Source of the DNA: Candidatus Aminicenantales bacterium
GTDB taxonomy: Bacteria; Acidobacteriota; Aminicenantia; Aminicenantales; Saccharicenantaceae
Assembly: GCA_049512315.1 (NCBI GenBank)
Contig: JBEKXF010000026.1
Coordinates: 1-44,348, forward strand
Reading direction: 5' to 3'
DNA length: 44,348 nt
Shown here: positions 1-44,348 of the stretch, piece by piece
Layout of the letters: the number at the start of each line of letters is the position of its first letter
Position numbering within the stretch: the first letter of the stretch is position 1
The notes under the pieces: model-generated
What the model was told of the DNA's origin: nothing
What the model saw: the letters and a program-made list of their open reading frames with translations, nothing else
Databases searched by the model: none
Position numbers and translations under genes: made by a program

Positions 1-65
1 GGCGAAGGGAATACAATCGCTTCAGGCCGCATAGCTCCTTAGGCTATAGGCCGCCGGCTCCGGAG

Positions 66-121
66 GCATATTTGGCTGGAAAATTCACTCAAGGGCTGGT
101 ACATTGATCGGGGGCGGGTCA
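66..121 (+). mobile_element. IS3/IS407-like terminal repeat (right end of recurrent miniature element), degenerate
   Basis: ctggaaaattcactcaagggctggtacattgatcgggggcgggtca resembles copies at 6808, 27413, 29298, 41773; reverse complement begins TGACCCGCCCCC, an IS3-family-like tip. Confidence 0.5.
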
Positions 122-374
122 CTCGCCCTTCTAGAAAAGATAAAGAAATGAGCCATCGCTGTGTGGAACAGGAGGGCCAACAAACATCAACTGTTCATTC
201 GTAAAAGCAGCGATGCGGGGCGAGACGAAGAGCGCTGGGGTTTTAAAAACAGCTGGTGACGAACTTCATCCGACGGCCCCCCGGCTCTGGTTAAGAATCA
301 CCCCATCCATTTTCAATCGAATCGCTACCATTCTGGACATGGGCTTTCCAGGGGTCGGACCTAAGAAGTCTGGG

Positions 375-458
375 AACGCCGAGCGCTCCGCCACCAAGCC
401 CCCCGCGACGCTGGACCGCCGCCTCGTCCACCCCAGGCCGGAGAAGAAGGAGGACTAG
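375..458 (+). pseudogene. Orphan 3' gene fragment NAERSATKPPATLDRRLVHPRPEKKED* (copy A)
   Basis: Homologous to fragments at 6720, 29240, 42643, 44173; upstream part of ORF 213-458 is unrelated to the other copies. Confidence 0.7.
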
Positions 459-472
459 CTCGGCCGGACTCC

Positions 473-498
473 AAGCCCCGCTGGTCAGGCGGGGCTTT
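473..498. terminator. Intrinsic terminator hairpin after the gene-tail fragment
   Basis: aagccccgc-tggtcag-gcggggcttt; similar hairpins at 6676 and 42598. Confidence 0.75.
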
Positions 499-509
499 CT
501 TGTCCTCTC

Positions 510-557
510 CCAGGTTTTTCCCATTATAACCTGGACCGATTTAAAGGAGGCAGGTCA
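510..557 (-). mobile_element. IS3/IS407-like terminal repeat (left end of miniature element)
   Basis: Reverse complement TGACCTGCCTCCTTTAAATCGGTCCAGG; related to 2166-2188, 42557 and 44090. Confidence 0.55.
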
Positions 558-6474: not shown

Positions 6475-6590
6475 GGGAGTGTAGGGAAAACTGTCTAAAC
6501 CTCTTTGCATAGGTAAAATAAATCAAGGAGGTTCAGTCTATTCTTAACAAGTGTGAAAACATGCTCAAACGCGAAAAGGAGAGGCCCGGA
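6475..6590 (+). mobile_element. IS256-family-like end remnant
   Basis: GGGAGTGTAGGGAAAACTGTCTAAA starts immediately after the nitroreductase stop; inverted homolog of 3606-3721. Confidence 0.6.
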
Positions 6591-6616
6591 CCTGCTGGCC
6601 CTCTCCACACCTCTGC

Positions 6617-6854
6617 TGACCATTCTAGGGCCGAACTAAGTACTGTTATGGATCAGGGCCGGTTTGGCCTGGGATAAAAAAAGCCCCCCTGGTCAGGCGG
6701 GGCTTTTGGTCCGGTCGGCCTACTCCTCTTTCTGCTCCGGCCTCGGATGGATGAAGCGGCGGGCGAGCGTCACCGGGTGCTTGGCGGCCACCCGCTCGGC
6801 GTACTTGCTTGAAAATCTCACTTCAGGGGTGGCAAATTGAGCGCGGCCAGGCAA
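6617..6854 (+). mobile_element. Miniature element: degenerate left tip, terminator, reversed gene tail (copy B), right IS3-like end
   Basis: tgacc tip at 6617, hairpin 6676-6708, minus-strand SKYAERVAAKHPVTLARRFIHPRPEQKEE* at 6720-6809, then ttgaaaatctcacttcaggggtgg. Confidence 0.6.
6676..6708. terminator. Bidirectional intrinsic terminator
   Basis: aaaaaaagcccc...ggggctttt GC stem flanked by A and T tracts. Confidence 0.7.
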
Positions 6855-8102: not shown

Positions 8103-8381
8103 CCATAGGCTATCAGAATCTTGGGGAGGGGGGCATTGTCTGGGGCGTATGGCATGGGAGCTTCTGGAATACGGCCACTAAATGGATTGACTTCGTAGTC
8201 CCACGGCGTTATAAGTTAGTCAGCAAGGGATTAGGGGAAGTCGAAGGTCAGCCTTTCCGCAAAATCTATCTTTGCCGTCCCCGCGTTTCTGCAGCACTTC
8301 GACAGGAGGGGATTTATGAAACGCATTGCTTTTGCGATCTGCGTCGTTGTCTTGATCTTCGGAATTGCCATCCTGGCCCAG
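8103..8381 (+). repeat. Repeated promoter + 5' leader + signal-peptide module (copy 1)
   Basis: Aligns with 32835-33113. Confidence 0.85.
8187..8215 (+). promoter_or_regulatory. Sigma70-type promoter
   Basis: TTGACT-17bp-TATAAG; conserved at 32920 and 38362. Confidence 0.75.
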
Positions 8382-8765
8382 CAGAAGAGCGGAGGTGCGG
8401 AACAGGAAATCATTAAGCTTGAGCAGCAGTGGGGCGATGCCCTGGTTAAGCGCGACGTGGTATTCCTTGACCGGATTTTGGCCGAAGACTACATGTTTAC
8501 AAGCCCCGAAGGTGAGGTTCTGACAAAGGCCCAAATGCTGGCGATGCTGAAGTCCGGCGAGGATGTCGTATCGTCCGCGGTGAATCACGATTTGAAGGTC
8601 CGGGTCTACGGAGATGCGGCGGTCGTGACCGGCTACAGCACTTACAAAGAGACGGTCAAGGGCAAGGATATCAGCGGCCAGTATCGGTGGACAGACACCT
8701 GGATCAAAAAGGCCGGCCGCTGGCAGTGCGTCGCCGACCATGCTTCAAAGTTAGCAGGGAAGTAG
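8316..8765 (+). CDS. Secreted NTF2-like/DUF4440 protein
   Basis: Signal peptide; LEQQWGDAL, VRVYGDAAVVTG, TDTWIKKAGRWQCVADH. Confidence 0.85.
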   Translation: MKRIAFAICVVVLIFGIAILAQQKSGGAEQEIIKLEQQWGDALVKRDVVFLDRILAEDYMFTSPEGEVLTKAQMLAMLKSGEDVVSSAVNHDLKVRVYGDAAVVTGYSTYKETVKGKDISGQYRWTDTWIKKAGRWQCVADHASKLAGK

Positions 8766-8899
8766 CGACGAGTGTCTGCCAGTATGGCAAACGATTTTGT
8801 AGCGGCTGGGGTTGGGGTCGTCCGGAGGGAGATCGCAACACAGCAGCTTCACATAAATCGGGTTGAGTTTAATCCTGTTTCACTCAAAGGAGGAAAAAA

Positions 8900-9442
8900 A
8901 TGAAAAAATCATTGGCTCGAGTTGTTTTGGTTTTTCCCTTGGCTTTGTTGCTTTGCCTTGCCTTCGGCTGTCAGAAAAAGCCTGAAGAGGCAGCGGTCAA
9001 AGCGATGGTCCCAGTGGTCAACCTTGAGGCTGAGAAGACGGCTGTTAAGGCCGTGATCGATCAGTATATGCAAAGCTGGAAAACTAAGGATATGGAAGCT
9101 TTTTCTAAGGTCGTGGCCCACGATTCCGACATGATCAATTTCGGTACAGATGCCGCTGAAAGGTGGGTTGGGTGGGAATCACTCAAGGACTCAATGGAGC
9201 GGCAAAATAAGTCAATTAATTTTGAAGTAATTTCAATCCGAGACGAAGTCATCAAAGTTCACAATTCAGGTGAAGTCGCTTGGGTTTCGGCGACATGCGA
9301 TGCGAAGGGGAAAGCTCAAGGGCAGCCTTTTAGTATGGAGGGATGGAGAGTCACTGCAGTGCTAGAGAAACGGGCCGGAAGCTGGGTGATTGTCCAATTT
9401 CACATTTCTGTGCCAGTCGCGGGTCAGGCGGTCAAGTATTGA
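8900..9442 (+). CDS. SnoaL/NTF2-like lipoprotein
   Basis: RBS aggagg, lipobox LAFGC, RVTAVLEKRAGSWVIVQFHIS. Confidence 0.85.
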   Translation: MKKSLARVVLVFPLALLLCLAFGCQKKPEEAAVKAMVPVVNLEAEKTAVKAVIDQYMQSWKTKDMEAFSKVVAHDSDMINFGTDAAERWVGWESLKDSMERQNKSINFEVISIRDEVIKVHNSGEVAWVSATCDAKGKAQGQPFSMEGWRVTAVLEKRAGSWVIVQFHISVPVAGQAVKY

Positions 9443-12110: not shown

Positions 12111-15100
12111 GTGGCCATCACGTGCCCGAAATGTCATTCTGACAACTCCGAGACGGCGCGATTCTGCGCTGATTGCGGCACCCAGCTCCCTCTGCCCCAA
12201 GATCATTCCCCGGTCATGACGGAAACCCTTCAAACACCTGTTCATGAGTTAAGCAGAGGGACTACAATTGCGGGAAGGTACGAGATCATCGAAGAGCTCG
12301 GACGGGGAGGGATGGGCAAAGTCTACCGGGTAGAGGACAAGAAGATCAAGGCAGAGATCGCCCTGAAGCTCATCAAGCCGGAGATCTCTTCCGACAAAAA
12401 GACGATCGAACGGTTCAGCAACGAATTGAAAACGACTCGGATGATATCCCATAGGAACGTCTGCCGCATGTTTGACCTTGGTGAGGAGAAGGGAACCTAC
12501 TTCATCACCATGGAATATGTGGCGGGACAGGACCTGAGAGGGTTGATCAAGCAGACAGGTCAATTGACGGTCGGGAAAGCGATCGCCATCGCCAAGCAGA
12601 TCTCCGAAGGGCTGGCGGAGGCGCACCGGCTGGGAGTCATTCATAGGGATCTCAAACCCTCCAACATTATCATCGACAGGGAGGGCAACGCCCGGATCAT
12701 GGATTTTGGGATTGCCAGATCGCTTCACGGCAAAAGCATTACCGGCGAGGGCATGATCATCGGGACGCCCGAATACATGAGCCCGGAGCAGGTGGAGGGG
12801 AAAGAAGCGGACCAGCGATCGGATATTTATTCTCTGGGAATCATTCTTTACGAAATGTTGACGGGCCGGGCTCCGTTCGAAGGCGATACGCCGCTCAGCA
12901 TCGCCGTGAAGCATAAGAGCGAGCAGCCGCAGAATCCGCGTGACCTCAACGCCCAGATCCCGGAAGAGTTGGGCCGTTTGATTTTGCGCTGCCTGGAGAA
13001 GGACAAGGCGAAGCGCTACCAGACGGCCGAAGAGCTCCACACGGACCTAGAGAGGGTCGAGGCCGGATTGCCGACGACCGAGCGCATAGTCGCCAAACGC
13101 AAGCCCGCGACCTCAAGAGAGTTCACGGTCAAATTCCGGCTCAATAGAGTCCTCGCTCCCGCCTTCGCCGGGATCATCATTATCGTTGCGGCGCTCGTAC
13201 TTGTCCCCAGGCTTTTCCATAAGAGACCTCCCGTATCCGCGTCCGGCCTGCCCTTCGTGGCGATCATGACCATAAAGAACAACACGGGCGATCAGAACAA
13301 CGATGACTTAGCGGGTATGCTGATCGATGACCTGTCCCAGGCGACATTCCTCGACGTCGTCCCCTTCGATAAGATGTACGGAGTCCTCCGCCGATTGGGC
13401 CTTCTCGGAAAAAGGGATTTCGCCGATGCCGATCTGAGGAACGTCGCGGCCGAGACCGGGGCGACCCACATTCTCACGGGCTTCCTGAACAAGTCAGGTG
13501 AGAAGTTAAGGGTCAACACGACTCTTCAAGAGATCGCGACCGGCAAGAATGTCGCCTCACCGTCGGCCGAGGGAGAAGTTGGGAAGGGGGTTTTCCCCCT
13601 CGTGGACGAGCTGAAGGCGAAGGTCAAGGGTCATTTCGGCGCCGCGAGCGGGGCGGCATCCGAAGGCACTGATAGGACTATTCAGGAGATCGCCACGACC
13701 TCTCCTGAGGCTTATCGGTACTATAGCGAAGCTCGGAAACTGCACATGAATGGGGACTATGCAGAGAGTATTGCGATCATGCAGAAGGCAATTGCCCTTG
13801 ACCCGACGTTCGCCATGGCCTATAGAAGTTTGGCCGCGAGCAACGGCAACCTGGGCATCCTCTCTGAAAAGCGGCGCTACCTGCAGAAGGCCGTTGAATT
13901 CAGCCAGCGTCTGCCTGATAAGGAACGCCTCTATATTCAGGCAAATCTCTATGAATGTTCGGAAAGAACCTATGAGAAAGCCCTGGCCATCTATAGGAAA
14001 CTCGTGGCGGATTATCCGCATGACCCGCTCGCCGTGTATTGGTGCACCGGTTATTCTGTTGTTTACGACGATCTGGAGGAATACGAAAAATCTGCCGAAC
14101 AGGCCGAGGCGGTCCGGCGCCTGGATCCGGAGTCGTTCAATTCGGTGTTTAACGTCTGGGAAGCGTATTGTTCCCAGGGTGCTTATGATAAGGCCCAAAA
14201 GGTCGTGGAAGATCGGCTGCGGCAAAGCGACCGCGCTCTTATCCGCGTAGGGCTCGGGTGGGCCTTGCTTCTCCAGGGCAAATTCGACTTGAGCGCGGCC
14301 GAATTGGATAAAGCCATCGCCATGGCCCCCGGACTCTATAGTGGCTATTTATATAAGGGCCATCTCCGGTTGATTCAAGGGAATTTTGCCGAAGCGGAAA
14401 TGAACTATCGGAAGCTCTTTGACATCAACGATGAAGAGTCTCAGCTCTATGGCCGCGAAGCACTGGGCTATCTCTTCCTGGCACGGGGGGAATTCGGCCT
14501 CGCCGAGAAATACTTGAATGAGTCCGTCCAATTGGCCGCCCGGAATCACCGCGAGACGTCCGAGTGTGAGGACCGGTTGGCTTTGGGCTTTCTCCTCCTC
14601 GAATCCGGAGTTCCGCGCGACGCCCTCAGAGAATTTGCGACGGTCGAAAAGGAGGCCCAAACGGTCGACAGCTACAAATACGAAAGGCCGGCGTTGCTCG
14701 GTCGGGGCCTGGCCTCTCTAGCGCTGAGGTCCTTGGCCGACGCCGAGAAGGCGGCCGCGGACCTCAAGAAGTTGAATGACTCGGGGATGAACAGGAAGGC
14801 CTATCGCTATGGTTCTTTCCTTGTCGGGTCGATCGAGCTCGAGAAAGGGGACTATCCCCGGGCGGTTCGGCATTTTCAAGACGCCATCGGCCAATTGTCT
14901 TCAGAATTCGCAAATGAGAGAGAATGTGCGTGGTTCCGGGAGGCTCTGGCATTGGCCTATTGGAAAGCCGGCGATCTGCAAAGGGCCCGTGATACTTATA
15001 CACAGATAACAACGTTGAATTTCGGCCGCAAGAAAGCCGGGGAGATCTACGCCCGGAGCCATTATCGGCTGGGCCTTATCTATGAGAAGCTCGGCGACAA

Positions 15101-15212
15101 GACCCGCGCCCGCGAGAATTACCACAAATTCCTCGACCTCTGGAAGGACGCCGACCCCGGCCTGCCCGAGGTTGAGGACGCCAGGAAGCGGCTATCGAAC
15201 TTAGGAATGTGA
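12111..15212 (+). CDS. Zinc-ribbon Ser/Thr protein kinase with TM, TolB-N-like domain and TPRs (K1)
   Basis: CPKC..FCADC, GRGGMG, HRDLKP, DFG, YMSPEQ, TM segment, TPRs, [15 protein letters not shown] tail. Confidence 0.95.
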   Translation: MAITCPKCHSDNSETARFCADCGTQLPLPQDHSPVMTETLQTPVHELSRGTTIAGRYEIIEELGRGGMGKVYRVEDKKIKAEIALKLIKPEISSDKKTIERFSNELKTTRMISHRNVCRMFDLGEEKGTYFITMEYVAGQDLRGLIKQTGQLTVGKAIAIAKQISEGLAEAHRLGVIHRDLKPSNIIIDREGNARIMDFGIARSLHGKSITGEGMIIGTPEYMSPEQVEGKEADQRSDIYSLGIILYEMLTGRAPFEGDTPLSIAVKHKSEQPQNPRDLNAQIPEELGRLILRCLEKDKAKRYQTAEELHTDLERVEAGLPTTERIVAKRKPATSREFTVKFRLNRVLAPAFAGIIIIVAALVLVPRLFHKRPPVSASGLPFVAIMTIKNNTGDQNNDDLAGMLIDDLSQATFLDVVPFDKMYGVLRRLGLLGKRDFADADLRNVAAETGATHILTGFLNKSGEKLRVNTTLQEIATGKNVASPSAEGEVGKGVFPLVDELKAKVKGHFGAASGAASEGTDRTIQEIATTSPEAYRYYSEARKLHMNGDYAESIAIMQKAIALDPTFAMAYRSLAASNGNLGILSEKRRYLQKAVEFSQRLPDKERLYIQANLYECSERTYEKALAIYRKLVADYPHDPLAVYWCTGYSVVYDDLEEYEKSAEQAEAVRRLDPESFNSVFNVWEAYCSQGAYDKAQKVVEDRLRQSDRALIRVGLGWALLLQGKFDLSAAELDKAIAMAPGLYSGYLYKGHLRLIQGNFAEAEMNYRKLFDINDEESQLYGREALGYLFLARGEFGLAEKYLNESVQLAARNHRETSECEDRLALGFLLLESGVPRDALREFATVEKEAQTVDSYKYERPALLGRGLASLALRSLADAEKAAADLKKLNDSGMNRKAYRYGSFLVGSIELEKGDYPRAVRHFQDAIGQLSSEFANERECAWFREALALAYWKAGDLQRARDTYTQITTLNFGRKKAGEIYARSHYRLGLIYEKLGDKTRARENYHKFLDLWKDADPGLPEVEDARKRLSNLGM

Positions 15213-15222
15213 ACGAGATAAA

Positions 15223-17736
15223 ATGAAATGCCCTAAGTGTCAGGCCGAGAACCCAGAGACTAAGCTGTTCTGCGGAGATTGTGGGACACAGTTGCCTCCT
15301 CCCCAAGAGCATCCTCCGGTCATGACAGAGACCCTCCAAACGCCTGCCCGCGAGCTCACGACAGGCTCCACCTTCGCCGGTCGCTACCAGGTCATCGAAG
15401 AGCTCGGCCACGGCGGCATGGGCCGGGTCTACAAGGTCTTCGATACCAAGATCAAAGAGAAGGTCGCTCTGAAGCTCATCAAGCCCGAGGTCGCCTCGGA
15501 TAAAGAGACGATCGAGCGGTTCTCTAACGAGATCCGTCTGGCCCGGAGGATCAGACACAAGAACGTCTGCGGGATGTTTGACATCGGGGAGGCGGAGGGC
15601 GCTCATTTCATCACTATGGAATATGTCCATGGCGAGGATCTCAAGAGCCTGATCCACATGTCCGGGAGCCTGAGCCTGGGCATGCTGCTGAGCGTCGGGA
15701 AGCAGGTCTGCGACGGGCTGGCCGAAGCCCATAGCCTGGGCGTTGTCCACCGGGACCTAAAACCTCAGAATATCATGATTGACAAGAACGGGAACGCCAA
15801 GATCATGGATTTCGGGATCGCCCGGTCGGTCAAGGATAAAGGGATAACGGGCGCCGGGGTGATGATCGGAACGCCCGAGTACATGAGTCCGGAGCAGGCC
15901 GAAGCCAAAGAGGTCGACCATCGCTCTGACATCTATTCCCTGGGAGTTATTCTTTATGAGATGGCGACAAGCCACGTGCCCTTCACAGGGGAGACGGCCC
16001 TCAGCATCGCGATGAAGCACAAGGGCGAGACGCCGAAAGACCCTAAGCAGCTTAATCCAGGGATCCCCGATGACCTAAGTAGCGTCATTCTCAAGTGCCT
16101 GGCAAAGGACCAGAGTAGTCGATACCAGAACGCCGGCGACGTGCGTTCCGAGCTGGAGAAGATCGAACGGGGAATCCCGACGACCGAGCGGGTCATCCCC
16201 GCCCAAAAGCCGTCAACCTCGAGGGAGATCACGGTCAAGTTCAGCCCGAGGAAATTCTTGGCGCCTGCTCTGATCGTCGCCGTTGTCGCGCTCGCCGCCG
16301 TGGGGTATTGGCTGCTGGCACCTAAGAAACACGCGCCTTCCGCGGCATCACAGAAACGTTCGATCGCCGTGCTGCCGTTTACCGATTTGAGCCAGGCCAG
16401 GCAGTATGAATACCTCTGCGACGGCCTGTCGGAAACGCTGATCGATGCCCTGACCCACATCGAGGGTCTTTGGGTTCCGGCCAGGACCTCGGCCTTTTTC
16501 TTCAAAGGGAAAACGCAGGACGTCCGTGAGATCGGCCAGAAGCTCGGCGTAGACAGCGTGCTCGAAGGCAGTGTCCAAGTGGCCGGAGACAATCTCCGGG
16601 TCACGGCTCGAATCAGCAACGTTCAAGACGGCCGACAGGTCTGGTCCGAGATCTACAACCGCAAAATGGCGGACATATTCGCCATCCAGGACGATATCGC
16701 CAAGGCCATCGTTACGGCCCTGAAGATCAAGCTGCTCGGCGAAAGGGGCGCACCGCTCGTCAAGAACTATACCGAGAACCTCGAGGCATACCGGCTGTAT
16801 CTACAGGGCCGCAAATTATGGAACACGCGCGGTGAAGCCGAGCTCATAAAATCTCTTGATTATTTCGAGAAGGCGATCGAAGCAGACCCAAAATATGCGC
16901 TGGCCTATGTGGGCCTGGGCGACACTTATTATATCCTCGGGAATAACGGCATCTGGCCGCCCAAACAGGCCTATCCCAAAGCCAAGGAAGCGACGGCAAA
17001 GGCTTTGGAAATAGACGATAAGCTCGCGGAAGCCCACGCGACTTTGGGAAGCATCCTCGGTGATTATGATTGGGACTATGCAGCCGCCGAGAAGGAATTC
17101 AAGCTGGCCATCGAGCTCAATCCCGGCTATGCCACAGGCCACCAATATTACGCGTACCATCTGGAAAACCTGGGACGTTTCGAAGAGGCCATGCGCGAGA
17201 TCAGGAACGCCCGGGACCTCGACCCCTTGTCGCCCAGGATATGCGCCAACGTAGGCCTTTTCCTGTTTTATCAACGCCGATACGGCCAGGCCATTGAGGA
17301 ATTGAGCAAAGCGCTTGAAGTGGACCCGACGCATGCCGCGACTTATACCTGGCTCGGCTGGTCGTATGAAGCGATGGGGAAATACGATGAAGCCATCAAG
17401 TACCACAGTCGGGCTGCTGACCTCAGGGGTTGGCCTAAAGGCTTGAACCCGTACTTGGCCGGCTGCTACGCGCTAATGGGGAAAAAGGAAGAGGCGCGAA
17501 GAATTCTCAACAATCTTATCGGGTATTCAAGAACGCGCTATTCGCCATCCGTAATCTTTGCGTCGATATGTTCGGCTCTGGGGGAGAAGGAACAGTGCTT
17601 TGTCTGGCTTGATAAGGCCTTCCGCGAGCGCGACCCGTTTCTGCTTATGTTTGTGAAACCCCTCCATTTGTTCGACCCGGTGCGCTCCGATCCGCGTTTC
17701 ACTGCCTTGATGCGCAAAATCGGCCTAGAAAAATGA
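15223..17736 (+). CDS. Zinc-ribbon Ser/Thr protein kinase with TM, TolB-N-like domain and TPRs (K2)
   Basis: Kinase motifs; SIAVLPF..LEGSV; TPRs; DPVRSDPRF tail. Confidence 0.95.
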   Translation: MKCPKCQAENPETKLFCGDCGTQLPPPQEHPPVMTETLQTPARELTTGSTFAGRYQVIEELGHGGMGRVYKVFDTKIKEKVALKLIKPEVASDKETIERFSNEIRLARRIRHKNVCGMFDIGEAEGAHFITMEYVHGEDLKSLIHMSGSLSLGMLLSVGKQVCDGLAEAHSLGVVHRDLKPQNIMIDKNGNAKIMDFGIARSVKDKGITGAGVMIGTPEYMSPEQAEAKEVDHRSDIYSLGVILYEMATSHVPFTGETALSIAMKHKGETPKDPKQLNPGIPDDLSSVILKCLAKDQSSRYQNAGDVRSELEKIERGIPTTERVIPAQKPSTSREITVKFSPRKFLAPALIVAVVALAAVGYWLLAPKKHAPSAASQKRSIAVLPFTDLSQARQYEYLCDGLSETLIDALTHIEGLWVPARTSAFFFKGKTQDVREIGQKLGVDSVLEGSVQVAGDNLRVTARISNVQDGRQVWSEIYNRKMADIFAIQDDIAKAIVTALKIKLLGERGAPLVKNYTENLEAYRLYLQGRKLWNTRGEAELIKSLDYFEKAIEADPKYALAYVGLGDTYYILGNNGIWPPKQAYPKAKEATAKALEIDDKLAEAHATLGSILGDYDWDYAAAEKEFKLAIELNPGYATGHQYYAYHLENLGRFEEAMREIRNARDLDPLSPRICANVGLFLFYQRRYGQAIEELSKALEVDPTHAATYTWLGWSYEAMGKYDEAIKYHSRAADLRGWPKGLNPYLAGCYALMGKKEEARRILNNLIGYSRTRYSPSVIFASICSALGEKEQCFVWLDKAFRERDPFLLMFVKPLHLFDPVRSDPRFTALMRKIGLEK

Positions 17737-17789
17737 GTTTCAAGAGACTTAGAGATTATAAGGAACGTCTCGGCCCTTTTGGGAACGGC

Positions 17790-17843
17790 GACCCCGGCCT
17801 GCCCGAGGTTGCGGATGCCAGGAAGAGATTGGCGGCGCTATGA
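17790..17843 (+). pseudogene. Orphan kinase C-terminal tail [17 protein letters not shown]
   Basis: Near-identical DNA to the K1 and K4 3' ends; its TGA overlaps the K3 ATG. Confidence 0.8.
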
Positions 17844-20743
17844 AATGCCCGAAGTGTCACACCGATAATCCCGACACGTCACGGTTTTGCGCCAACTGTG
17901 CAACCTCACTGACTTCGGCTAAGGCCGTCTCTCCTTCCCTCACGAAAACTCTGCAATCGCCCACATATGTTGTCACCCCCGGGACTGTTATCGCTGGCCA
18001 TTATGAGGTCCAGGAAAAGCTTGGCCAGGGCGGAATGGGCGAAGTTTATCGGGCTCTCGACAAGAATCTCGGCCGGCAGGTGGCCATCAAGATCCTGCCG
18101 GAGGAGTTTTCGACGGACCCGGAGAGGTTGGCCAGGTTCGAGCGTGAGGCCAAGCTTCTGGCGACGCTAAATCATCCCAATATCGCTGCCGTCTATGGTT
18201 TCGAAGAAGCGAAGGGGCTCCGATTTCTTGTGCTGGAGCTCGTGGACGGAGAAACCCTGCAAACGCGGCTTATTAGAGGGCCCTTGCCCATGGACGAGGC
18301 GCTGGAGACGTGCCGGCAGGTCGCCGAGGGGCTTGAAGCCGCCCATGAGAGGGGAGTCGTCCATCGGGATCTGAAGCCTGGCAACATCATGATCACGCCC
18401 GAGGGCAAGGTCAAAATCCTGGACTTCGGATTGGCCAAGGCCTATGCGAGTGAGACGTCGGGCATCGACATCGCGAATTCGCCGACGATCACGGCCCAGA
18501 TGACCGGGCCGGGCATCATCCTAGGCACGGCAGCCTATATGAGTCCGGAGCAGGCGCGTGGGCGGGCGGTGGACAAGCGGGCCGATATCTGGGCCTTCGG
18601 TTGCGTGCTGTTTGAGTGCCTGTCCGGCAAGAGAGCGTTTCAGGGCGACACAATTACCGAGACACTGGCTGCGATTCTGAAGGGTGAACCGGACTGGACG
18701 GCTCTCCCGGCAGAGACTCTTCCGTCTGTGCGGGCCGTGTTGAGGCGGTGCCTCCAGAAAGACACCCACGTCCGTCTCCACGACATGGCCGATGCCCGGG
18801 TGGAAATGCTGGAGGATCTCTCTGGATTCATGGAGGCGATCCCCGTTGACCGACGATTCCCACTCCGATGGGTTCTATCAATAAGCGCAGCAACCCTTGT
18901 GACCGGACTTCTGGCCGGCCCGATGATCATGAAATTCTTAGGCCCCGCAACATCGCCAGTATCCAAGCCTATCATGCGTTCGGTTATCAAGTTGGAGCAG
19001 GGGCGCTATCTCTCTGGATATCTATTAAGTGCTCCGTTCGGATTTGATCGTCCGACTCGGACCGCGATGGCCATCTCGAGCGATGGTCGCTTCATCGTTT
19101 ATGCGGCTATCAAGGCGGATCGCGGCCCCCAGGACAAGTCTTGCCTGTACCTTCGGAGACTCGACGAGCTGGAGGCCAAGCCCATCGCCGGAACGGAAGG
19201 CGACGTCAATAATCCGTTCCTTTCGCCCGATGACCGATGGGTGGGATTCTTTAACGACTACAAGCTGATGAAGGTTTCGATCGAGGGCGGAGTTCCGGCC
19301 GCCCTATGCGATGTCTCCATGCCGTTCGGGTTCAGTTGGGGGGACGATAATCAGATCGTCTTTGCGTCGGCTAGAGGCGCTGGGCTCAGCAGGGTTCCCG
19401 CCGAGGGCGGCAAGCCGGAGACATTGACCGTGCCTGATAACTCAAAAGGGGAATTCGCCCACCGGCTTCCCTTTTGTCTGCCCGGGAGGAAGGGAATTCT
19501 GTTCACCATTATGCGACATGCCTGGGACAAGGAGCCCCGTGTTGCCGTGCTGGAACTCGGTTCCCGAAAATGGCGTGTACTGCTTGAAGATGCCGCAGAT
19601 GCTCGATATACCACAACCGGCCATCTCGCCTTCCTCCGGAGAGGGGCGCTTATGGTCGTCCGTTTCGATTTGGATCGACTCGAAGTCATCGGCCAGCCCG
19701 TCCCCGCCGTCGCGAACATTGAGCAGGCGCTCAATACCACGAATTCCTCCCGGGACGCCGGCGCCGGCCAATTTTGCATCTCCACGTCGGGAGCGTTGGT
19801 TTATGCGGCGGGGGGGATCCTCCCGGACCAGGAGAACTCACTCGTTTTACTGGACCGTGAGGGGAAGGCCGAACCCGTCGCATCGTTCAAAGCTCCATTC
19901 TATGCTCCCCGGTTTTCGCCTGATGGTCAGCGGATCGTCTACGCGAGCCTGGGAATGGAAGGGCACATCTGGGTCCTCGATTTGAATCGAGGCACGGCCT
20001 CGAAGCTGACCTCCGAAGGTATGTCGGAGCTTGCGGCGTGGACTCCGGATGGCCGGCGAGTTGTTTTTGACTGGCTGAACACGGGAGTCCCCAATATCTA
20101 CTGGCAGCCTGTCGATGGAAGCTCGCCGATGGAGCGGCTCACACAGGGCGAGTACTTTCAGTGGCCCGGATCCTGGACTCCCGATGGAAAAACGCTGGCT
20201 TTTGTGGAAGACCACGCGGACACGGAGACCGGATATGATATCCAGCTCTTTAATGTCCGTGACCGGCGGGTCACGCCGTTTCTTAACTCGCGCTTCAGTG
20301 AAAGGTATCCGGAGATCTCACCCGACGGGCATTGGATCGCCTATGTGTCTGACGAGTCAGGCCGCGACGAAGTCTATGTCCAACCGTTCCCCGGCCCTGG
20401 GGGTAAGTGGCAGATCTCCAACGAGGGCGGCGCGGAACCCCTCTGGTCACGGGATAGCCGACAGCTGTTCTATCGGCAGAGTTGGTCTCAGCGCGAGAAC
20501 CAGGTCTCTGTAGCTGACGTCCGGACCGGCCCCGTCTTTTCCGCCGGCAAGCCCCGTCTTTTGTTTACGGCGCAGGACTATGTCGGCATGGGTCAAATCC
20601 GCTCCTGGGACATCTCTCCCGACGGAAAGCACTTCCTGGTGGTGAAAATGGAAGAAAGGAAGTCCCGGCCCTTGACCGAGTTGGTCCTCGTCCAGAACTG
20701 GTTCGAAGAACTCAAGCGGCTTGTCCCAACGGGCAAGAAATAG
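17840..20743 (+). CDS. Zinc-ribbon Ser/Thr protein kinase with PD40/TolB-like beta-propeller (K3)
   Basis: Kinase motifs; repeated SPDG/TPDG propeller motifs; VQNWFEELKR tail. Confidence 0.95.
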   Translation: MKCPKCHTDNPDTSRFCANCATSLTSAKAVSPSLTKTLQSPTYVVTPGTVIAGHYEVQEKLGQGGMGEVYRALDKNLGRQVAIKILPEEFSTDPERLARFEREAKLLATLNHPNIAAVYGFEEAKGLRFLVLELVDGETLQTRLIRGPLPMDEALETCRQVAEGLEAAHERGVVHRDLKPGNIMITPEGKVKILDFGLAKAYASETSGIDIANSPTITAQMTGPGIILGTAAYMSPEQARGRAVDKRADIWAFGCVLFECLSGKRAFQGDTITETLAAILKGEPDWTALPAETLPSVRAVLRRCLQKDTHVRLHDMADARVEMLEDLSGFMEAIPVDRRFPLRWVLSISAATLVTGLLAGPMIMKFLGPATSPVSKPIMRSVIKLEQGRYLSGYLLSAPFGFDRPTRTAMAISSDGRFIVYAAIKADRGPQDKSCLYLRRLDELEAKPIAGTEGDVNNPFLSPDDRWVGFFNDYKLMKVSIEGGVPAALCDVSMPFGFSWGDDNQIVFASARGAGLSRVPAEGGKPETLTVPDNSKGEFAHRLPFCLPGRKGILFTIMRHAWDKEPRVAVLELGSRKWRVLLEDAADARYTTTGHLAFLRRGALMVVRFDLDRLEVIGQPVPAVANIEQALNTTNSSRDAGAGQFCISTSGALVYAAGGILPDQENSLVLLDREGKAEPVASFKAPFYAPRFSPDGQRIVYASLGMEGHIWVLDLNRGTASKLTSEGMSELAAWTPDGRRVVFDWLNTGVPNIYWQPVDGSSPMERLTQGEYFQWPGSWTPDGKTLAFVEDHADTETGYDIQLFNVRDRRVTPFLNSRFSERYPEISPDGHWIAYVSDESGRDEVYVQPFPGPGGKWQISNEGGAEPLWSRDSRQLFYRQSWSQRENQVSVADVRTGPVFSAGKPRLLFTAQDYVGMGQIRSWDISPDGKHFLVVKMEERKSRPLTELVLVQNWFEELKRLVPTGKK

Positions 20744-20747
20744 TTTT

Positions 20748-20936
20748 GGCAGACTCCTCCCCGTGTAACAGCCATGTCACAAAAAATGCTTAAACGCGCT
20801 TAATCCTGACTAAAGGTGCGTAAAGGAAAACAAAACAATTCCCCCTGGAAATTGGGTTTTCCCCATATGGCCAGGAGGGTGGAGCGTTGGACTCCGGATC
20901 CAAAATTCGAAGGTTTGAATCCTCTCTGGCATGCCA
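20748..20936 (+). repeat. att-like direct repeat: arm region plus degenerate tRNA-Arg(CCG) 3' fragment
   Basis: Near-identical to 21737-21925 (period 989 bp); tRNA part 20880-20936. Confidence 0.9.
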
Positions 20937-21047
20937 TTCTTTTACAGCTACCTCACCCATCGGGACCTCATCACCCCGACCCTGATGTTGACAGGATGGT
21001 TCATTCGCGTCCATAATAATATTATCAAGTTTGAGGGAAGGTTTGGA

Positions 21048-21626
21048 ATGAAAAATACAGGTACAAGTTTCCTTTTTATCCCCCTGATTCTCATGAGCGT
21101 CGTGTTGGCTCCGAATTGCGCGACGATCATTCAACGGAGCATGCAAAGAATCCCGGTGACGTCTTCTCCCGTTGGCGCCGCGGTCACTGTCGACGGCCAG
21201 AAACAAGGTGTGACTCCGCTCGATATATATCTGTCCAGGCAGGAGAAGGGTCAGGTTATTCGGATCGAATCCCCAGGATATAATTCCTTCGAAATCCACG
21301 TTAAGCGCAGGCTGTCGGGAGCCCCGATCCTCGGTAACGTCCTCCTCGGAGGGCTCGCCGGACTTAGCGCGACTGCGATCTATGGGCTGAGTCGCGGGAT
21401 TTTTTGGGCCAATAACAGAACCGCAAATTTGATCTTTGTCGTCGGTGGCGTAGTGTCCTTTGGAGTCTGTATGCTCATCGATGCCGCCGGTAAAGGATAC
21501 ACGCTGACGCCGACCGAACTCACGGTGACTTTGACTAAGGTCGACGGGCCGCCCCGAGTCGATATGGTTCTCGTCGACGCCGGCGACTTTCGAAACGTCA
21601 AGTGGATCCGAATCCGTAAAGATTGA
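21048..21626 (+). CDS. PEGA-domain (lipo)protein
   Basis: Signal ending in C; VTSSPVGAAVTVDG..GVTP PEGA motif; two hydrophobic segments. Confidence 0.8.
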   Translation: MKNTGTSFLFIPLILMSVVLAPNCATIIQRSMQRIPVTSSPVGAAVTVDGQKQGVTPLDIYLSRQEKGQVIRIESPGYNSFEIHVKRRLSGAPILGNVLLGGLAGLSATAIYGLSRGIFWANNRTANLIFVVGGVVSFGVCMLIDAAGKGYTLTPTELTVTLTKVDGPPRVDMVLVDAGDFRNVKWIRIRKD

Positions 21627-21736
21627 GCGCCCGGGCAGTTGGCCTCCTCCGCGGGTCTCCTTATCAAGCTGCCCTTCAGCTCGGGCAACCGCTGGCATGC
21701 AGCCGTGGCTGCTGAAATGCAGGGCTTGCTTTCAAG

Positions 21737-29239: not shown

Positions 29240-29344
29240 ATGAACCCGGTCGCGCAGCGTCGCGGGGCGCTTGGCGGCGGCGCGGGCGGCGTACTTGCTT
29301 GAAAATCTTGCTTCAGAGGTGTTACATTTAGCGGAGGCAGGTTA
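29240..29344 (+). mobile_element. Miniature-element remnant: reversed gene tail (copy C) fused to right IS3-like end
   Basis: Minus-strand SKYAARAAAKRPATL; junction gtacttgcttgaaaatc identical to 6801. Confidence 0.65.
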
Positions 29345-36862: not shown

Positions 36863-36909
36863 TGGACTCCGGATCTAAACGTCGGAGGTTCGAATCCTCT
36901 CAGGCACGC
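36863..36909 (+). tRNA. tRNA-Arg(CCG) 3' fragment
   Basis: tggactccggatctaaacgtcggaggttcgaatcctctcaggcacgc. Confidence 0.8.
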
Positions 36910-37151
36910 TCCCTTATTTTCCGTATTTCAGCCATTCAGCCTATCCCGATCTTCAGTGTGACACGGCGGGGGAGGGCTGTCTCACGGGGCCTTTTAAGAG
37001 TTCTTGACTACGACCCGCGGCCGGGAATATCATCGTTTCGTGATAGGGGGTATTGGCTACAAGCTTAGTGGCGTTAAAGTTGCGTAGCTCAATTGAATAG
37101 TTACCTAAATTTTTATCAATCAGTGGACTACAATCAAAAGGGAGGGAGGAT

Positions 37152-37784
37152 ATGAAAAGAGCGTTGCTTATAATTTTGGGTTTTGGGATTGTGTGCTCGC
37201 AGCTATTATCACAAGAGTTGGTGGTCCGCTTCCACTTCAAGGACCATCCTGAGCAGACGGAGGCAGCGCCCGAGGGGACCGCATTTGGAAGCCTCACAGG
37301 CCCAAATCAGTTCAATATGAGACCAAACGAGCCAGGCTTGCCGAGGTGGCTCAGTGTCCAGTCCCGTGATGATCTCAGCATATTTGGGGATGTATTTCGA
37401 AAAGCCTTGATATCCGATTTTGGAACATCGGAGGAAAACGATCCTGAACGAAAACTTATAAGGACGCGCCGCCTAGTCTCCGGTTTAGGGTTGGCCATCA
37501 GCTGGATAGGGACGGTCGTCGTTGATCTTCTCTATGATGATTGGTATCGATCGACCACAGTGATCCCCGTGGCGGGACCTTGGATAACGCTAGCCAGATT
37601 GGCGAGCCATCACGATCCAGGTTGGCCTGGGGCAAAAGCACTCCTTATTCTCTCCGGTGTCGCTCAAACCAGCCTTGCGACATATTTCATCATTTCACTA
37701 ACACGGCATCCCAAACCGAAAGAAACGAAAAGCGTGGCGATATCGGCGAGTTTCAATACAATCAACTTGAGGATTCAATTCTAG
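37152..37784 (+). CDS. Hypothetical exported/membrane protein
   Basis: RBS ggagg, signal peptide, IPVAGPW hairpin motif, C-terminal INLRIQF. Confidence 0.75.
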   Translation: MKRALLIILGFGIVCSQLLSQELVVRFHFKDHPEQTEAAPEGTAFGSLTGPNQFNMRPNEPGLPRWLSVQSRDDLSIFGDVFRKALISDFGTSEENDPERKLIRTRRLVSGLGLAISWIGTVVVDLLYDDWYRSTTVIPVAGPWITLARLASHHDPGWPGAKALLILSGVAQTSLATYFIISLTRHPKPKETKSVAISASFNTINLRIQF

Positions 37785-37925
37785 TTGAACGGTGCAGACG
37801 GACCTCGAGGGCGCGGTTCAGTAACAGATGCCGACGTATACGGCCGTGTCGGGCGAGAATTAGGGTCGAAGCCGGGGGGTCGGGACGTCCTCGGTCTGGC
37901 CGGCGATTCTGTCGGAGAGGCTCTC

Positions 37926-37968
37926 GACTCCGGATCCAAAGGTCGGAGGTTCGAATCCTCTCAGGCAC
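37926..37968 (+). tRNA. tRNA-Arg(CCG) 3' fragment
   Basis: gactccggatccaaaggtcggaggttcgaatcctctcaggcac, identical to the corresponding part of 21869-21925. Confidence 0.85.
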
Positions 37969-38169
37969 CTTCTGGACAGCCGCTCAACCCTATCTTAGGT
38001 TGTCTGTAAGTTAATCAGAGCGACGGTCCCATCGTCGACCCCATCGTCGCAGTGCGTTGGGCGCCGGTCAATCGTCTTTCCTGGCTAATCGGGGGGGGAT
38101 ATTTCGGTTTCAGGCCTCACCCTCAGGGGGGGAGGGAAACCCTACGGTCACGCGGGGAGAGGTCTTCGT

Positions 38170-38224
38170 TTAGAGCAGCAGACTCTTAATCCGCGGGTTG
38201 TAGGTTCGAGTCCTACACGGGTCA
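38170..38224 (+). tRNA. tRNA-Lys(CUU) 3' fragment
   Basis: tagagca-gcaga-ctCTTaa-tccgc-gggtt-gtagg-ttcgagt-cctac-acgggtca; no 5' acceptor strand. Confidence 0.8.
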
Positions 38225-38361
38225 TTCCCGTCTTCCAGAAATCTCAACCACTTACCCTGATTCCCTTTTTAGGCTGAGTTAGCAGAACTGAGCCATTTTA
38301 GGCGGTTTTGTCCCCGCCGTGTCCGCACGGCGGCTTCGGGGGATAAGTCGGCTCTAGCCTA

Positions 38362-38390
38362 TTGACTTCGTGTTCTCGCAATGCTATAAA
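38362..38390 (+). promoter_or_regulatory. Sigma70-type promoter
   Basis: TTGACT-17bp-TATAAA. Confidence 0.7.
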
Positions 38391-38505
38391 TTAAGGTACA
38401 GTAGATTAGGGCTAAACCGGGGTCAGTATAAGTCAGCTGATCGTTCACCTTGAAGGTGCCTTTTCTTCTCCCTAATCTATGAATTTTGTAAAAAGGAGGG
38501 GTTTT

Positions 38506-39054
38506 ATGAAACGTATGGCTCTTGTGGTTGGCATGGTCGTCTTGGTTTTCGCAGTCTCCCTTTGGGCTCAGACAACGGCTCCGCAGCCCGATCCAGAGCT
38601 CAAGAAGTTCGACGTCTTTTTGGGCCATTGGACATACGTGGGAGAATACAAGGCCGGCCTGTTGGGGCCAGCTAGCAAGGTTACGGGGGATTGGTCCGGC
38701 AACCAGATTCTCGGAGGATTCTTTTTTCAGGACCAGTTTACAGAAAAAGGGGTTGCTGGAGAGACGAGGGGATTTGAGATCATCGGCTACGACCCGGCGA
38801 ACAAGACCTTTTTCAGTAATGAATACCATAACGATGGAAACATGCTCTCAGGGGCGTATGCCTTCAGTGGAAGCACATTGACCTATACCGGCAAATTTAC
38901 CGTCGGAGGAAAGCCGTATATGATCAAGGCCACAGGCATATTAGCGGCGGATTCGATGAGTTTCACGATAAAAGCCGAAATCTCTCCCGATGGCACGACG
39001 TGGACGCCTTTTTTTGAAAATACATATACCAAGACCACGCCCACACCGAAGTAA
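38506..39054 (+). CDS. Secreted DUF1579-like beta-barrel protein
   Basis: Paralog of 33048; RBS aggagg; same signal-peptide family. Confidence 0.75.
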   Translation: MKRMALVVGMVVLVFAVSLWAQTTAPQPDPELKKFDVFLGHWTYVGEYKAGLLGPASKVTGDWSGNQILGGFFFQDQFTEKGVAGETRGFEIIGYDPANKTFFSNEYHNDGNMLSGAYAFSGSTLTYTGKFTVGGKPYMIKATGILAADSMSFTIKAEISPDGTTWTPFFENTYTKTTPTPK

Positions 39055-39117
39055 TAACTGACTGCCGACGGGGCGAGACAAAGGCGCTAGGCAACGCTGA
39101 GTCCGGAACGAATCGTA

Positions 39118-39155
39118 ACTCCGGATCCAAAGGTCGGAAATCCGAATCCTCTCAG
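39118..39155 (+). tRNA. Degenerate tRNA-Arg(CCG) 3' fragment
   Basis: actccggatccaaaggtcggaaatccgaatcctctcag. Confidence 0.7.
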
Positions 39156-42556: not shown

Positions 42557-42752
42557 TGACCTTCCCTCCTTAAATCGAACTGAGAATATATATAAATAAA
42601 GCCCCGCCTAGCCAGCGGGGCTTTTCGTCCTACGGTCCCGGCTCAGTCCTCCTTCCGCCCCGGCCTGGGGTGGACGAAGCGCTTGTCGAGCGTCGCGGGG
42701 TGCTTGGCGGCGACGCGCTCGGCGTACTTGCTTTTGGGCAGGCGGCCGGCCC
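42557..42752 (+). mobile_element. Miniature element: left tip, terminator, reversed gene tail (copy D)
   Basis: tgaccttccctccttaaatcg; hairpin 42598-42625; minus-strand AGRLPKSKYAERVAAKHPATLDKRFVHPRPGRKED* at 42643-42750. Confidence 0.6.
42598..42625. terminator. Bidirectional intrinsic terminator
   Basis: aaagccccgc-ctagcca-gcggggctttt between convergent genes. Confidence 0.75.
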
Positions 42753-43868: not shown

Positions 43869-44090
43869 TTCTTTGAAGAGCGCGAGCGTGACCCGCGGAT
43901 AGTCCAATTCCCCCCACGAGCTTGCGCGGGATGCGGAAAGGAACGCAAGCCCGCTGGAGGCCGCTACCTACCCGACGGCTGGATCGGGCTTTTCGACCCC
44001 GAGGCCGGGGAATATGTGGGAGCCGTGTGTGAGAAATGCGTGCGCCCCAGGCTGGAGGAAATTCCGATGAGAAGCAATCTCGTGAATTAG
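43869..44090 (+). pseudogene. 5'-truncated zinc-finger protein fragment
   Basis: CAGC...LPDGW...CEKC; begins right at the IS256 tip. Confidence 0.45.
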
Positions 44091-44147
44091 GGACCTCATC
44101 CCTTAAAAACGGTCCAGACATGATGTGAGTTTTCTGGCAAAATCTCA
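44090..44147. mobile_element. Partial palindromic MITE-like unit
   Basis: gggacctcatcccttaaaaacggtccagacatgatgtgagttttc matches 41729. Confidence 0.6.
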
Positions 44148-44172
44148 AGGAGGACGTTGGAGTCGGGACGGC

Positions 44173-44245
44173 CTAGCCCTCCTTATGCTCCGGCCTGGGG
44201 CGGACGAAGCGGCGGTCGAGAGTCACGGGTGCTTCGCGGCGACGC
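44173..44245 (-). pseudogene. Orphan gene tail (copy E, 1-nt deletion)
   Basis: VAAKHP/VTLDRRFVRPRPEHKEG*. Confidence 0.7.
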
Positions 44246-44348
44246 CATCTGGTGAGGTTAGGGCTTCCTGCCGGCCGTGTTGGTTTCAACCCATGCGGCG
44301 AAGGCGTGCATATATCTCGCGACGAATTCCCTTGTCGAGTCATTGACA

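What the first reader, a model, noticed from the sequence alone, without database searches (positions are those of the whole stretch)
375..557. A 30-codon gene tail plus terminator repeated five times with codon-like divergence
Seen: the peptide SKYAERVAAKHP(A/V)TL(D/A)(R/K)RF(V/I)HPRPEKKED* occurs at 375(+), 6720(-), 29240(-), 42643(-) and 44173(-), always at module boundaries and never with its parent gene. Many differences are synonymous or conservative (cgg/cgc, gtg/gtc, ccg/ccc, cat/cac, tag/tga). Three copies keep the same terminator followed by a TGACC tip. Inference: these are 3' ends of one gene captured repeatedly from divergent donors (a protein-coding attB), or a small peptide still under selection. 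I cannot identify the parent gene.
Basis: partly seen in the sequence, partly recalled or inferred. Interest (0 to 1): 0.72.

Follow-up and report, generated by a model that had tools for sequence, protein, structure and literature searches.

The report
Displaced gene tails inside mobile islands
The repeated peptide is the left-over end of a small gene carried by a family of mobile DNA islands in uncultured Aminicenantes bacteria; the left-overs most likely mark where packets of accessory genes were added behind that gene and later swapped, a known kind of scar and not a new peptide.

Summary
The five copies are real (31 profile hits in the genome, 0 in the reversed genome), but only two carry the whole peptide. 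The parent is found: an orphan, basic, weakly HTH-like gene of 120-140 aa, intact twice in this genome; its 5' part lies in the window (32487-32721). It is accessory, not chromosomal: whole in 2 of 339 genomes searched. It sits in tRNA-targeting islands with a small tyrosine recombinase, a terminase-large-subunit-like gene and a large serine recombinase. Tails lie on the parent's strand (19 of 19), downstream (18 of 19), start at 35 different positions, often with microhomology, and separate cargo blocks that reassort across them. The TGACC tips are IS3-family end remnants. The codon-like divergence is mostly inherited from parent alleles; 9 of 61 tails are broken and 31 of 61 change an invariant residue, though a small synonymous excess remains. 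Best reading: sequential 3'-end displacement by anchor-plus-microhomology recombination, as proposed for Vibrio T6SS and Rhs arrays; not an attB, not a selected peptide. The scan noted displaced-tail arrays and capsid-less terminase islands before on other DNA.

The parts
374..458 (+). Tail copy 1: last ~27 codons of the parent gene with stop (456-458); diverged, lacks the SKY start; the only copy of six in the window on the + strand
473..497 (+). Terminator hairpin of the parent gene (A run before, T run after, so probably two-way)
   Evidence: (z -3.3)
501..557 (-). IS3-type end remnant (type B, tip TGACC at 557), pointing into the terminator; 12 hits in the genome
   Evidence: IS3 assignment by likeness of the first 13 nt to the left end of the genome's IS3 element
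1..121 (+). 3' end of an IS3-family transposase and its right inverted repeat (contig break); about 85% like the 48-bp remnant A48 (read by eye)
   Evidence: (rve_3 at 3-56)
6720..6809 (-). Tail copy 2: 29 codons with stop, fused at AGC to an A48 remnant
6807..6854 (-). A48: 48-bp remnant of an IS3 right end; in locus L065 the same upstream DNA and A48 are followed by another IS end instead of a tail
6585..6705 (-). Terminator (6681-6705) and type-F downstream module of copy 2; F also follows whole parents
29255..29344 (-). A48 remnant (29297-29344) fused to tail copy 3, cut after 15 codons; unfused twin in L064
32487..32869 (-). Leader (32723-32869) and 5' part (about codons 1-75) of the parent gene, joined to unrelated DNA; the same upstream flank carries a whole parent in L038 and differently cut parents in L062, L063
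42643..42753 (-). Tail copy 4: 36 codons with stop, directly behind the stop codon of a short-chain dehydrogenase gene
42557..42623 (-). Terminator (42599-42623) and type-C end with TGACC tip at 42557; C also follows whole parents
44173..44249 (-). Tail copy 5: about 25 codons, 1-nt deletion, no terminator
44090..44160 (+). IS3 left-end remnant (type E) behind copy 5; the cargo beyond it follows a whole parent in L057 and other tails in L044, L045, L099, L108
20882..21925 (+). Two 3' fragments of tRNA-Arg(CCG) (20882-20936, 21858-21925): attachment-site scars of the island family (inferred)
36863..39155 (+). Three more tRNA-Arg(CCG) fragments (36863-36909, 37926-37968, 39118-39155) and a tRNA-Lys(CTT) fragment (38171-38225)

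Best explanation
The repeats are displaced 3' ends of one accessory gene (120-140 aa, Lys/Ala-rich N-terminus, four predicted helices, weakly HTH-like) of a family of tRNA-targeting integrative islands in Aminicenantes (small tyrosine recombinase, terminase-large-subunit-like gene, cargo, large serine recombinase). Shown: the parent, its place in these islands, the polarity of the tails, many breakpoints with microhomology, and reassortment of upstream and downstream cargo across the tail. Inferred mechanism: DNA from a sibling island pairs with the resident copy in the leader or gene body, brings its own gene end, terminator and cargo, and its far end fuses by a few matching bases inside the old gene; the old tail and old cargo are pushed downstream. 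Once there, tails and the short IS3-end remnants fused to them are shared homology through which cargo blocks are swapped. One fusion (A48 plus tail) spread as a module. The tails are not translated for a purpose; their codon-like divergence comes mostly from the allele pool of the working gene.
For: Whole parents in G000 on C61 and C67, one running off C59, one with a deletion on C43; parent under purifying selection, pN/pS 0.24 in the tail region and 0.31 in the core. 19 of 19 tails near a whole parent on its strand, 18 of 19 downstream, with 67.7 kb upstream and 84.9 kb downstream available (p 2e-4). Terminase-like gene upstream on the same strand in 7 loci; large serine recombinase downstream on the same strand in 7 arrays, ending in a tRNA or tRNA fragment in 6 of them. 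61 distinct tails start at 35 profile positions; unfused twins show 3 to about 20 bp of partly imperfect microhomology. 8 of 60 downstream flank classes occur with more than one upstream class, 11 of 67 upstream classes with more than one downstream class or remnant type; pairs sharing upstream DNA are 94% identical in codons 64-91 but at background (82-86%) in the tail. Alleles found only in tails fall evenly on codon positions (28/27/26), 19 of 81 synonymous; 9 of 61 tails have a frameshift or stop against 1 of 21 whole genes; 31 of 61 change a residue invariant in whole genes. The same model is proposed for Vibrio T6SS and Rhs arrays (PMC5361080, passages). ComEC is present.
Against: No event is observed; the model rests on end products. 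A synonymous excess remains: tails show 19 of the 23 synonymous changes not seen in whole genes but only 62 of 170 non-synonymous ones, excess dN 0.045 against excess dS 0.10 with a wide interval, and 53% of differences from the nearest whole gene are synonymous; unsampled parent alleles can explain this but it was not shown. 20 of 61 tails share one breakpoint, which a site-specific reaction would also give. About 8 loci with 4.7 kb or more upstream of the parent show no terminase-like gene, and two terminase modules of G000 (C5, C50) have no parent in the 19-20 kb read. The polarity count is not of independent events, and a short upstream remnant on C67 was missed by it. Tandem integration at tRNA plus deletion predicts the same polarity. 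The flank comparison has only 6 and 14 pairs.
Confidence: 0.58

Rival explanations
1. Tandem accretion and deletion: sibling islands integrate one behind another at a tRNA by the serine recombinase, and deletions remove the core between them, ending inside the next parent gene and leaving tail plus cargo. It can act together with the best explanation.
For: Many tRNA 3' fragments in the islands, five for tRNA-Arg(CCG) in the window on the strand opposite most tails, as in intact islands; six close terminase copies in G000; on C43 a parent 5' part is joined to a terminase gene lacking its start; known from Prochlorococcus and Dehalococcoides islands (10.1101/2020.12.28.424599 and PMC3146451, passages).
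Against: Random deletions should leave pieces of all core genes; G000 has about 20 tails but one clear terminase fragment (C61) and no serine-recombinase end next to the window's tRNA fragments. The T-arm motif scan found no tRNA fragment between parent or first tail and recombinase in G003:C7, C9, C27 or G000:C2.
Confidence: 0.2
2. IS3-derived miniature elements: the unit A48-tail-terminator-IS end (about 220-230 bp) is moved by IS3 transposases acting in trans.
For: Both ends derive from IS3-type ends with tips facing outward; an IS3 element with near-identical copies breaks many contigs; about 26 of 61 tails follow A48 (read by eye).
Against: 0 of 7 two-ended units have a target duplication of 3 bp or more; copies differ by 10-13% and are clustered with strict polarity behind the parent; more than half of the tails have no A48; twins show the same A48 and upstream DNA with a different right part, not an empty site.
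Confidence: 0.08
3. Site-specific cassette system: a recombinase of the island (the ~200-aa tyrosine recombinase) uses a site at codon 91 of the parent, or the inner end of A48, to add cassettes (the first reader's protein-coding attB).
For: 20 of 61 tails start at the same AGC; A48 ends sharply at nt 47-48 in most of its 50 hits in the genome; the small recombinase is a conserved island gene, and a tail or a similar small basic gene with terminator lies just upstream of it in G002, G009 and G021.
Against: The other 41 tails start at 32 other positions; A48 is plainly an IS3 end; crossovers are spread over gene and tail; the tail has no folded or palindromic structure (z 0.1 to 2.2); the recombinase scores 57 bits against the integron-integrase cut-off of 265; the parent is not a conserved chromosomal gene.
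Confidence: 0.09
4. The tail is a small peptide gene kept by selection.
For: Residual synonymous excess; the C-terminal motif is conserved even in the 55% identical relative P0062; gene callers list such ORFs.
Against: Lesions in 9 of 61, changes at invariant residues in 31 of 61; an in-frame start with an SD-like word in 3 of 61, one of them separated from the tail by a stop; the left end varies.
Confidence: 0.05

Closest known systems
3'-end displacement arrays of Vibrio cholerae T6SS effector-immunity clusters and Rhs/CdiA loci (PMC5361080, passages read)
   Same: Whole gene at the head, same-strand left-over 3' ends and retained cargo behind it; proposed origin by homology-facilitated illegitimate recombination; arrays then swapped by ordinary homologous recombination.
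   Different: Here the anchor is a small orphan gene of a mobile island, multi-copy in one genome; the cargo is metabolic and regulatory, not toxin-immunity pairs; tails are fused to IS3-end remnants and keep a terminator.
Tycheposons of Prochlorococcus (10.1101/2020.12.28.424599, passages read)
   Same: Cargo-carrying integrative elements at tRNA genes, partial tRNAs and remnants scattered through islands, some with large serine recombinases.
   Different: Tycheposons mostly use tyrosine integrases (910 of 937) and their satellite forms carry a capsid or small terminase gene; here a terminase-large-subunit-like gene and a serine recombinase whose gene runs into the tRNA. No homology test to tycheposon hallmark profiles was run.
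Dehalococcoides ssrA-specific genomic islands with DsiB (PMC3146451, passages read)
   Same: About 540-aa serine recombinase next to and overlapping the target RNA gene; tandem islands; modules without integration genes.
   Different: Target is ssrA with a 20-bp repeat; no terminase-like gene or displaced tails of an island gene in the passages read.
IS3-family insertion sequences and their non-autonomous derivatives (IS911 ends of 36 bp, PMC2909936, passages; IS407-group label and 3-5 bp target duplication recalled)
   Same: TG-tipped terminal repeats; A48 is about 85% like the right end of the genome's IS3 element; types B and E carry the left-end promoter region up to the ribosome-binding site.
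   Different: No target duplications, mixed end pairs, clustered and polar copies: remnants acting as homology, not shown to transpose.

Membership tests
3'-end displacement array (Rhs/CdiA/T6SS type) | Whole gene followed by same-strand orphan 3' ends separated by cargo | tested here: met
   19 of 19 same strand, 18 of 19 downstream; maps
3'-end displacement array (Rhs/CdiA/T6SS type) | Variable breakpoints with short homology | tested here: met
   35 start positions among 61 tails; microhomology against unfused twins in about 8 junction types
3'-end displacement array (Rhs/CdiA/T6SS type) | Toxin or effector gene with immunity genes as cargo | tested here: not met
   Parent has no Pfam, PHROG or NCBIfam family over cut-off; cargo next to window tails is DUF169, M20 peptidase, nitroreductase, dehydrogenase, methyltransferase. 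Works like, but is not, such a locus.
3'-end displacement array (Rhs/CdiA/T6SS type) | Formation without a dedicated recombinase | not testable with these tools
   The islands encode two recombinases; their substrates need experiment
Integrase attB inside a protein-coding gene | Target is a conserved single-copy chromosomal gene | tested here: not met
   Whole gene in 2 of 41 relatives and 2 of 339 class genomes, several copies in each
Integrase attB inside a protein-coding gene | One crossover point | tested here: not met
   20 of 61 share one point, 41 spread over 32 others; crossovers spread
IS3-derived miniature element | Terminal repeats derived from IS3 ends | tested here: met
IS3-derived miniature element | Target-site duplication (3-5 bp, recalled) | tested here: not met
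   0 of 7 two-ended units; later recombination could have erased them
Integron attC cassette array | Folded single-strand site and an IntI integrase | tested here: not met
   Tail folding z 0.1 to 2.2 in 4 copies; TIGR02249 57 bits, cut-off 265, for one small recombinase
Tycheposon / PICI-like satellite (surrounding island) | Site-specific integrase at a tRNA with partial tRNA scars | tested here: met
   PF00239+PF07508+PF13408 proteins ending in tRNA-Ser, -Leu, -Arg, -His, -Glu, -Asn; fragments
Tycheposon / PICI-like satellite (surrounding island) | Capsid or small terminase gene | tested here: inconclusive
   A terminase large subunit-like gene instead (PHROG 2, E 2e-26); PF05065 and PF04860 not found in G000, other capsid families not searched; one small ORF with a weak HGGxSTG match under cut-off
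Tycheposon / PICI-like satellite (surrounding island) | Primase/helicase replication module; excision and packaging | not tested
   Only 44 + 15 + 10 chosen proteins were scanned; mobility needs experiment
Helix-turn-helix DNA-binding protein (parent) | HTH fold or family match | tested here: inconclusive
   Model pLDDT 60.8, helices 31-56, 61-70, 76-85, 93-101; best Z 4.7, HTH domains among tied rows; Atlas feature scores 0.78-0.83, 9 of 10 best named hits of one clan: leads only

The most novel reading that the evidence does not exclude
The islands carry an undescribed cassette system: the parent's tail and the 48-bp IS3-end remnant have been co-opted as dedicated exchange sites, read by the island's small tyrosine recombinase with the parent protein as accessory factor, so that a terminase-bearing, apparently capsid-less satellite collects and shuffles host-benefit genes in an integron-like way without attC sites.
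Probability: 0.1. Interest if true: 0.8.

Novelty: new variant of a known kind. Interest (0 to 1): 0.42.

Why it matters
It shows how accessory genes pile up in the islands of an uncultured lineage: short left-overs (gene tails, IS ends, tRNA pieces) act as reusable joints, with no integron. It warns that codon-like divergence among repeats can be inherited from a parent allele pool and that gene callers turn such tails into false small proteins. It also points to a terminase-plus-serine-recombinase island family whose terminase-like gene is found in 50 of 339 Aminicenantia genomes, a better target for study than the tails themselves.

Tried and rejected
Parent as IS3 OrfA derivative: no similarity (hhalign probability 0.1; Pfam). 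Parent as the passenger of a 630-655 bp element with its own inverted repeats: a TGACC left tip in only 4 of 26 leaders, none of these with a matched right end. Fold searches: no Foldseek match at E<=0.001, best Z 4.7, no solved relative. Distant relatives: only P0062; a small basic gene in a similar place in G021 aligns over 33 columns at probability 3.6, inconclusive. No viral contig encodes a relative. Structured RNA or folded DNA site: Rfam gives only tRNA pieces, tail folding is not better than shuffles. IS110-type recombinases are not near the arrays and absent from two tail-rich genomes searched. A 99-aa HNH gene follows the parent or a tail in 5 loci, too few to make a homing endonuclease the driver; not tested further. 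RNA runs: none was listed. Literature searches for Aminicenantes with insertion sequence or integrase terms, and for serine recombinase-terminase-tRNA elements, found no description of this gene, its tails or this island family; supplements were not read. Rows left out of counts: two weak hits (C22, L069), copies cut by contig ends, identical duplicates, the C43 deletion allele and the distant-type tail for the rate estimates, and the cut window copy at 29255 (added only in the five-copy comparison).

Full report
OBSERVATION. The five places named hold pieces of one sequence. A DNA profile of the parent gene gives 31 hits at E<=0.01 in the genome and none in the reversed genome. Only the copies at 6720(-) and 42643(-) carry the whole peptide and stop. 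The copy at 374-458 lacks the first residues and is diverged, 29255-29299 is cut after 15 codons, and 44173-44249 has a 1-nt deletion. Three copies keep the terminator hairpin; a TGACC tip follows it in two.

THE PARENT. Open frames upstream of the genome's copies show a 120-140 aa gene, intact on C61 and C67, running off the end of C59 and with a deletion on C43. The protein search gave 61 hits, nearly all 73-100% identical, none with a named function. A profile search of 1.84 billion representatives gave 23 hits, with one distant relative (P0062, 55%) that keeps the C-terminal motif. Whole genes were found in 2 of 41 relatives and 2 of 339 genomes of the class; G002, G009 and G267 have tails only in these searches. 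Related records are titled Candidatus Aminicenantes. No Pfam, PHROG or NCBIfam family passes its cut-off. The model (pLDDT 60.8) has a disordered Lys/Ala-rich start and four helices; fold and Atlas hits lean to helix-turn-helix domains but are weak. I read it as a small DNA-binding protein of a mobile element; that is inference.

THE TIPS. The window starts in an IS3-family transposase whose right end recurs at seven contig ends. The 48-bp repeat fused to two window tails (A48, 50 hits) is about 85% like that end, read by eye; types B (12 hits) and E (31 hits) look like IS3 left ends up to the ribosome-binding site, and one E copy runs into an orfA start. Units with two outward tips have no target duplication (0 of 7). 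The IS407-group label and the usual duplication length are recalled.

SELECTION. I aligned 124 hits from the genome, 43 metagenome loci and 11 stretches of relatives, and kept 21 distinct whole genes and 61 distinct tails. Whole genes are under purifying selection (pN/pS 0.24 in the tail region, 0.31 in the core); tails show 0.33. Alleles shared with whole genes are 59% synonymous; alleles seen only in tails are 19 of 81 synonymous and flat over codon positions, 28/27/26, against 21-27% expected without selection. Nine of 61 tails have a frameshift or stop (1 of 21 whole genes) and 31 of 61 change a residue invariant in whole genes; 3 of 61 have an in-frame start with an SD-like word, one of them cut off by a stop. 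Against this: tails show 19 of 23 still-unseen synonymous changes but 62 of 170 non-synonymous ones, the excess over whole genes is dN 0.045 and dS 0.10 (interval 0.02-0.18), rare alleles of whole genes are not clearly more synonymous (6 of 20) than those of tails (19.5 of 98), and 53% of differences from the nearest whole gene are synonymous. Unsampled parent alleles are the simplest cause but were not shown. In four window copies 26 of 34 differences from the consensus are alleles of whole genes.

ARRANGEMENT. Tails within 15 kb of a whole parent in the same record are on its strand in 19 of 19 cases and downstream in 18 of 19, with similar amounts of sequence on both sides; these are not independent events, four more downstream tails on G003:C7 and one short upstream remnant on C67 are outside the count. 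The window is the only multi-copy contig with mixed strands. Gene maps show, at their fullest (G003:C7, G000:C2), a small tyrosine recombinase, unknown genes, a terminase-large-subunit-like gene, cargo, the parent or its remnant, cargo with tails, and a large serine recombinase whose end lies in a tRNA or tRNA fragment on the other strand. The terminase-like gene is upstream in 7 loci and not seen in about 8 with 4.7 kb or more upstream; the serine recombinase is downstream in 7 arrays. G000 has six close terminase copies, two of them with no parent nearby; the family is in 50 of 339 class genomes. Two capsid and portal families were not found in G000. The window has five tRNA-Arg(CCG) 3' fragments on the strand opposite most tails.

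JUNCTIONS AND SWAPS. The 61 tails start at 35 profile positions; 20 start at the AGC where A48 is fused. Where the unfused upstream DNA exists elsewhere, the junctions show 3 to about 20 bp of partly imperfect homology. Eight of 60 downstream flank classes pair with more than one upstream class, and 11 of 67 upstream classes with more than one downstream class or remnant type. Pairs with the same upstream DNA stay 94-95% identical through the gene core and fall to background in the tail; pairs with the same downstream DNA are also at background in the tail (6 and 14 pairs). Two window tails have twins in which the same upstream DNA and A48 lead into another IS end, and the cargo behind the 44173 copy follows a whole parent in one locus and other tails in four. 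So tail and A48 are crossover zones, with spread crossover points.

MECHANISM. Shown: parent, polarity, breakpoints, reassortment. Inferred: incoming DNA of a sibling island recombines with the resident leader or gene body, supplies a new gene end, terminator and cargo, and fuses by microhomology inside the old gene, pushing old tail and cargo downstream; later swaps use tails and IS-end remnants. This is the displacement model of PMC5361080 (passages). ComEC is present, so uptake of DNA is possible; packaging by the terminase-like gene is a guess. Tandem integration at tRNA with deletion gives the same polarity and probably contributes (C43 junction, tRNA scars), but leaves unexplained why tails (about 20 in G000) far outnumber pieces of other core genes. 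Transposition as miniature elements, a site-specific cassette system and a selected peptide each fail one or more tests listed above.

COMPARISON AND NOVELTY. It works like Rhs, CdiA and T6SS displacement arrays but is not such a locus. The surrounding island resembles tycheposons and Dehalococcoides ssrA islands in its tRNA-side recombinase and scars (passages of 10.1101/2020.12.28.424599 and PMC3146451) and differs by its large-terminase gene. I read passages only, of five papers (also PMC2909936, and 10.64898/2026.01.13.699239); nine searches found no description of this gene or island family. The scan's earlier notes describe displaced-tail arrays behind gatD, kinases and actin, and capsid-less terminase islands in other phyla; none matched this DNA or protein. 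These are unchecked notes, not support; I took the phrase 'capsid-less' from them. Verdict: a real feature, explained as a new variant of a known kind (the anchor is itself a mobile, multi-copy gene, joined to IS3-end remnants); interest 0.42.

Noticed in passing
window 27412-27459, 28279-28326, 41773-41819 and genome-wide: A 48-bp remnant of an IS3 right end has 50 hits in this genome and stops at nt 47-48 in most; it is followed directly by other IS3-type ends, by the parent leader or by the tail. The sharp inner boundary is unexplained (targeted insertion, microhomology or a pseudo-end).
   Followed up: partly
G000:C2:15900-43730; G003:C7:81950-108370; G000 C5, C50, C59, C43, C72: Island family with small tyrosine recombinase, two paralogous unknown genes, terminase-large-subunit-like gene, a short ORF coupled to a large serine recombinase, and a tRNA; six close terminase copies in this genome, relatives in 50 of 339 class genomes; two capsid and portal families were not found.
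   Followed up: partly
L099, L101, L109, L112, L115, L116, L118, L119, L120: The serine recombinase reading frame runs into the tRNA or tRNA fragment, so its C-terminus depends on the integration site.
   Followed up: no
window 8126 and 32858; G000 C2, C43, C61, C72, C73: A ~25-bp motif opens the parent's leader and also lies right after the terminase stop codon: 15 matches in the genome, a second set of direct repeats around cargo, possibly a binding or packaging site.
   Followed up: partly
genome-wide: About 60 tRNA fragments outside whole tRNA genes, mostly tRNA-Arg(CCG) and tRNA-Arg(CCT) 3' pieces; 5' pieces of tRNA-Sec at window 27285-27324 and on C17.
   Followed up: no
window 12111-27016, 34388-36838, 39179-41713: Six long paralogous genes that look like zinc-ribbon Ser/Thr kinases (label from the sequence, not scanned), several with the same promoter-like repeat; relatives recur as cargo in the islands.
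   Followed up: no
window 8316-9442, 33048-34146, 38479-39054: Repeated small exported proteins with a shared signal-peptide-like start and promoter repeat; one is SnoaL/DUF4440-like.
   Followed up: no
L157:10131-10538(-); L120 upstream of 14481(-): Other small Lys/Ala-rich genes with a two-way terminator sit directly before the small tyrosine recombinase in related islands, suggesting a slot for a small DNA-binding protein.
   Followed up: partly
L043:3036, L100:11910: A tail whose left junction is a perfect palindrome made from the parent's own sequence, as after a template switch or inversion.
   Followed up: no
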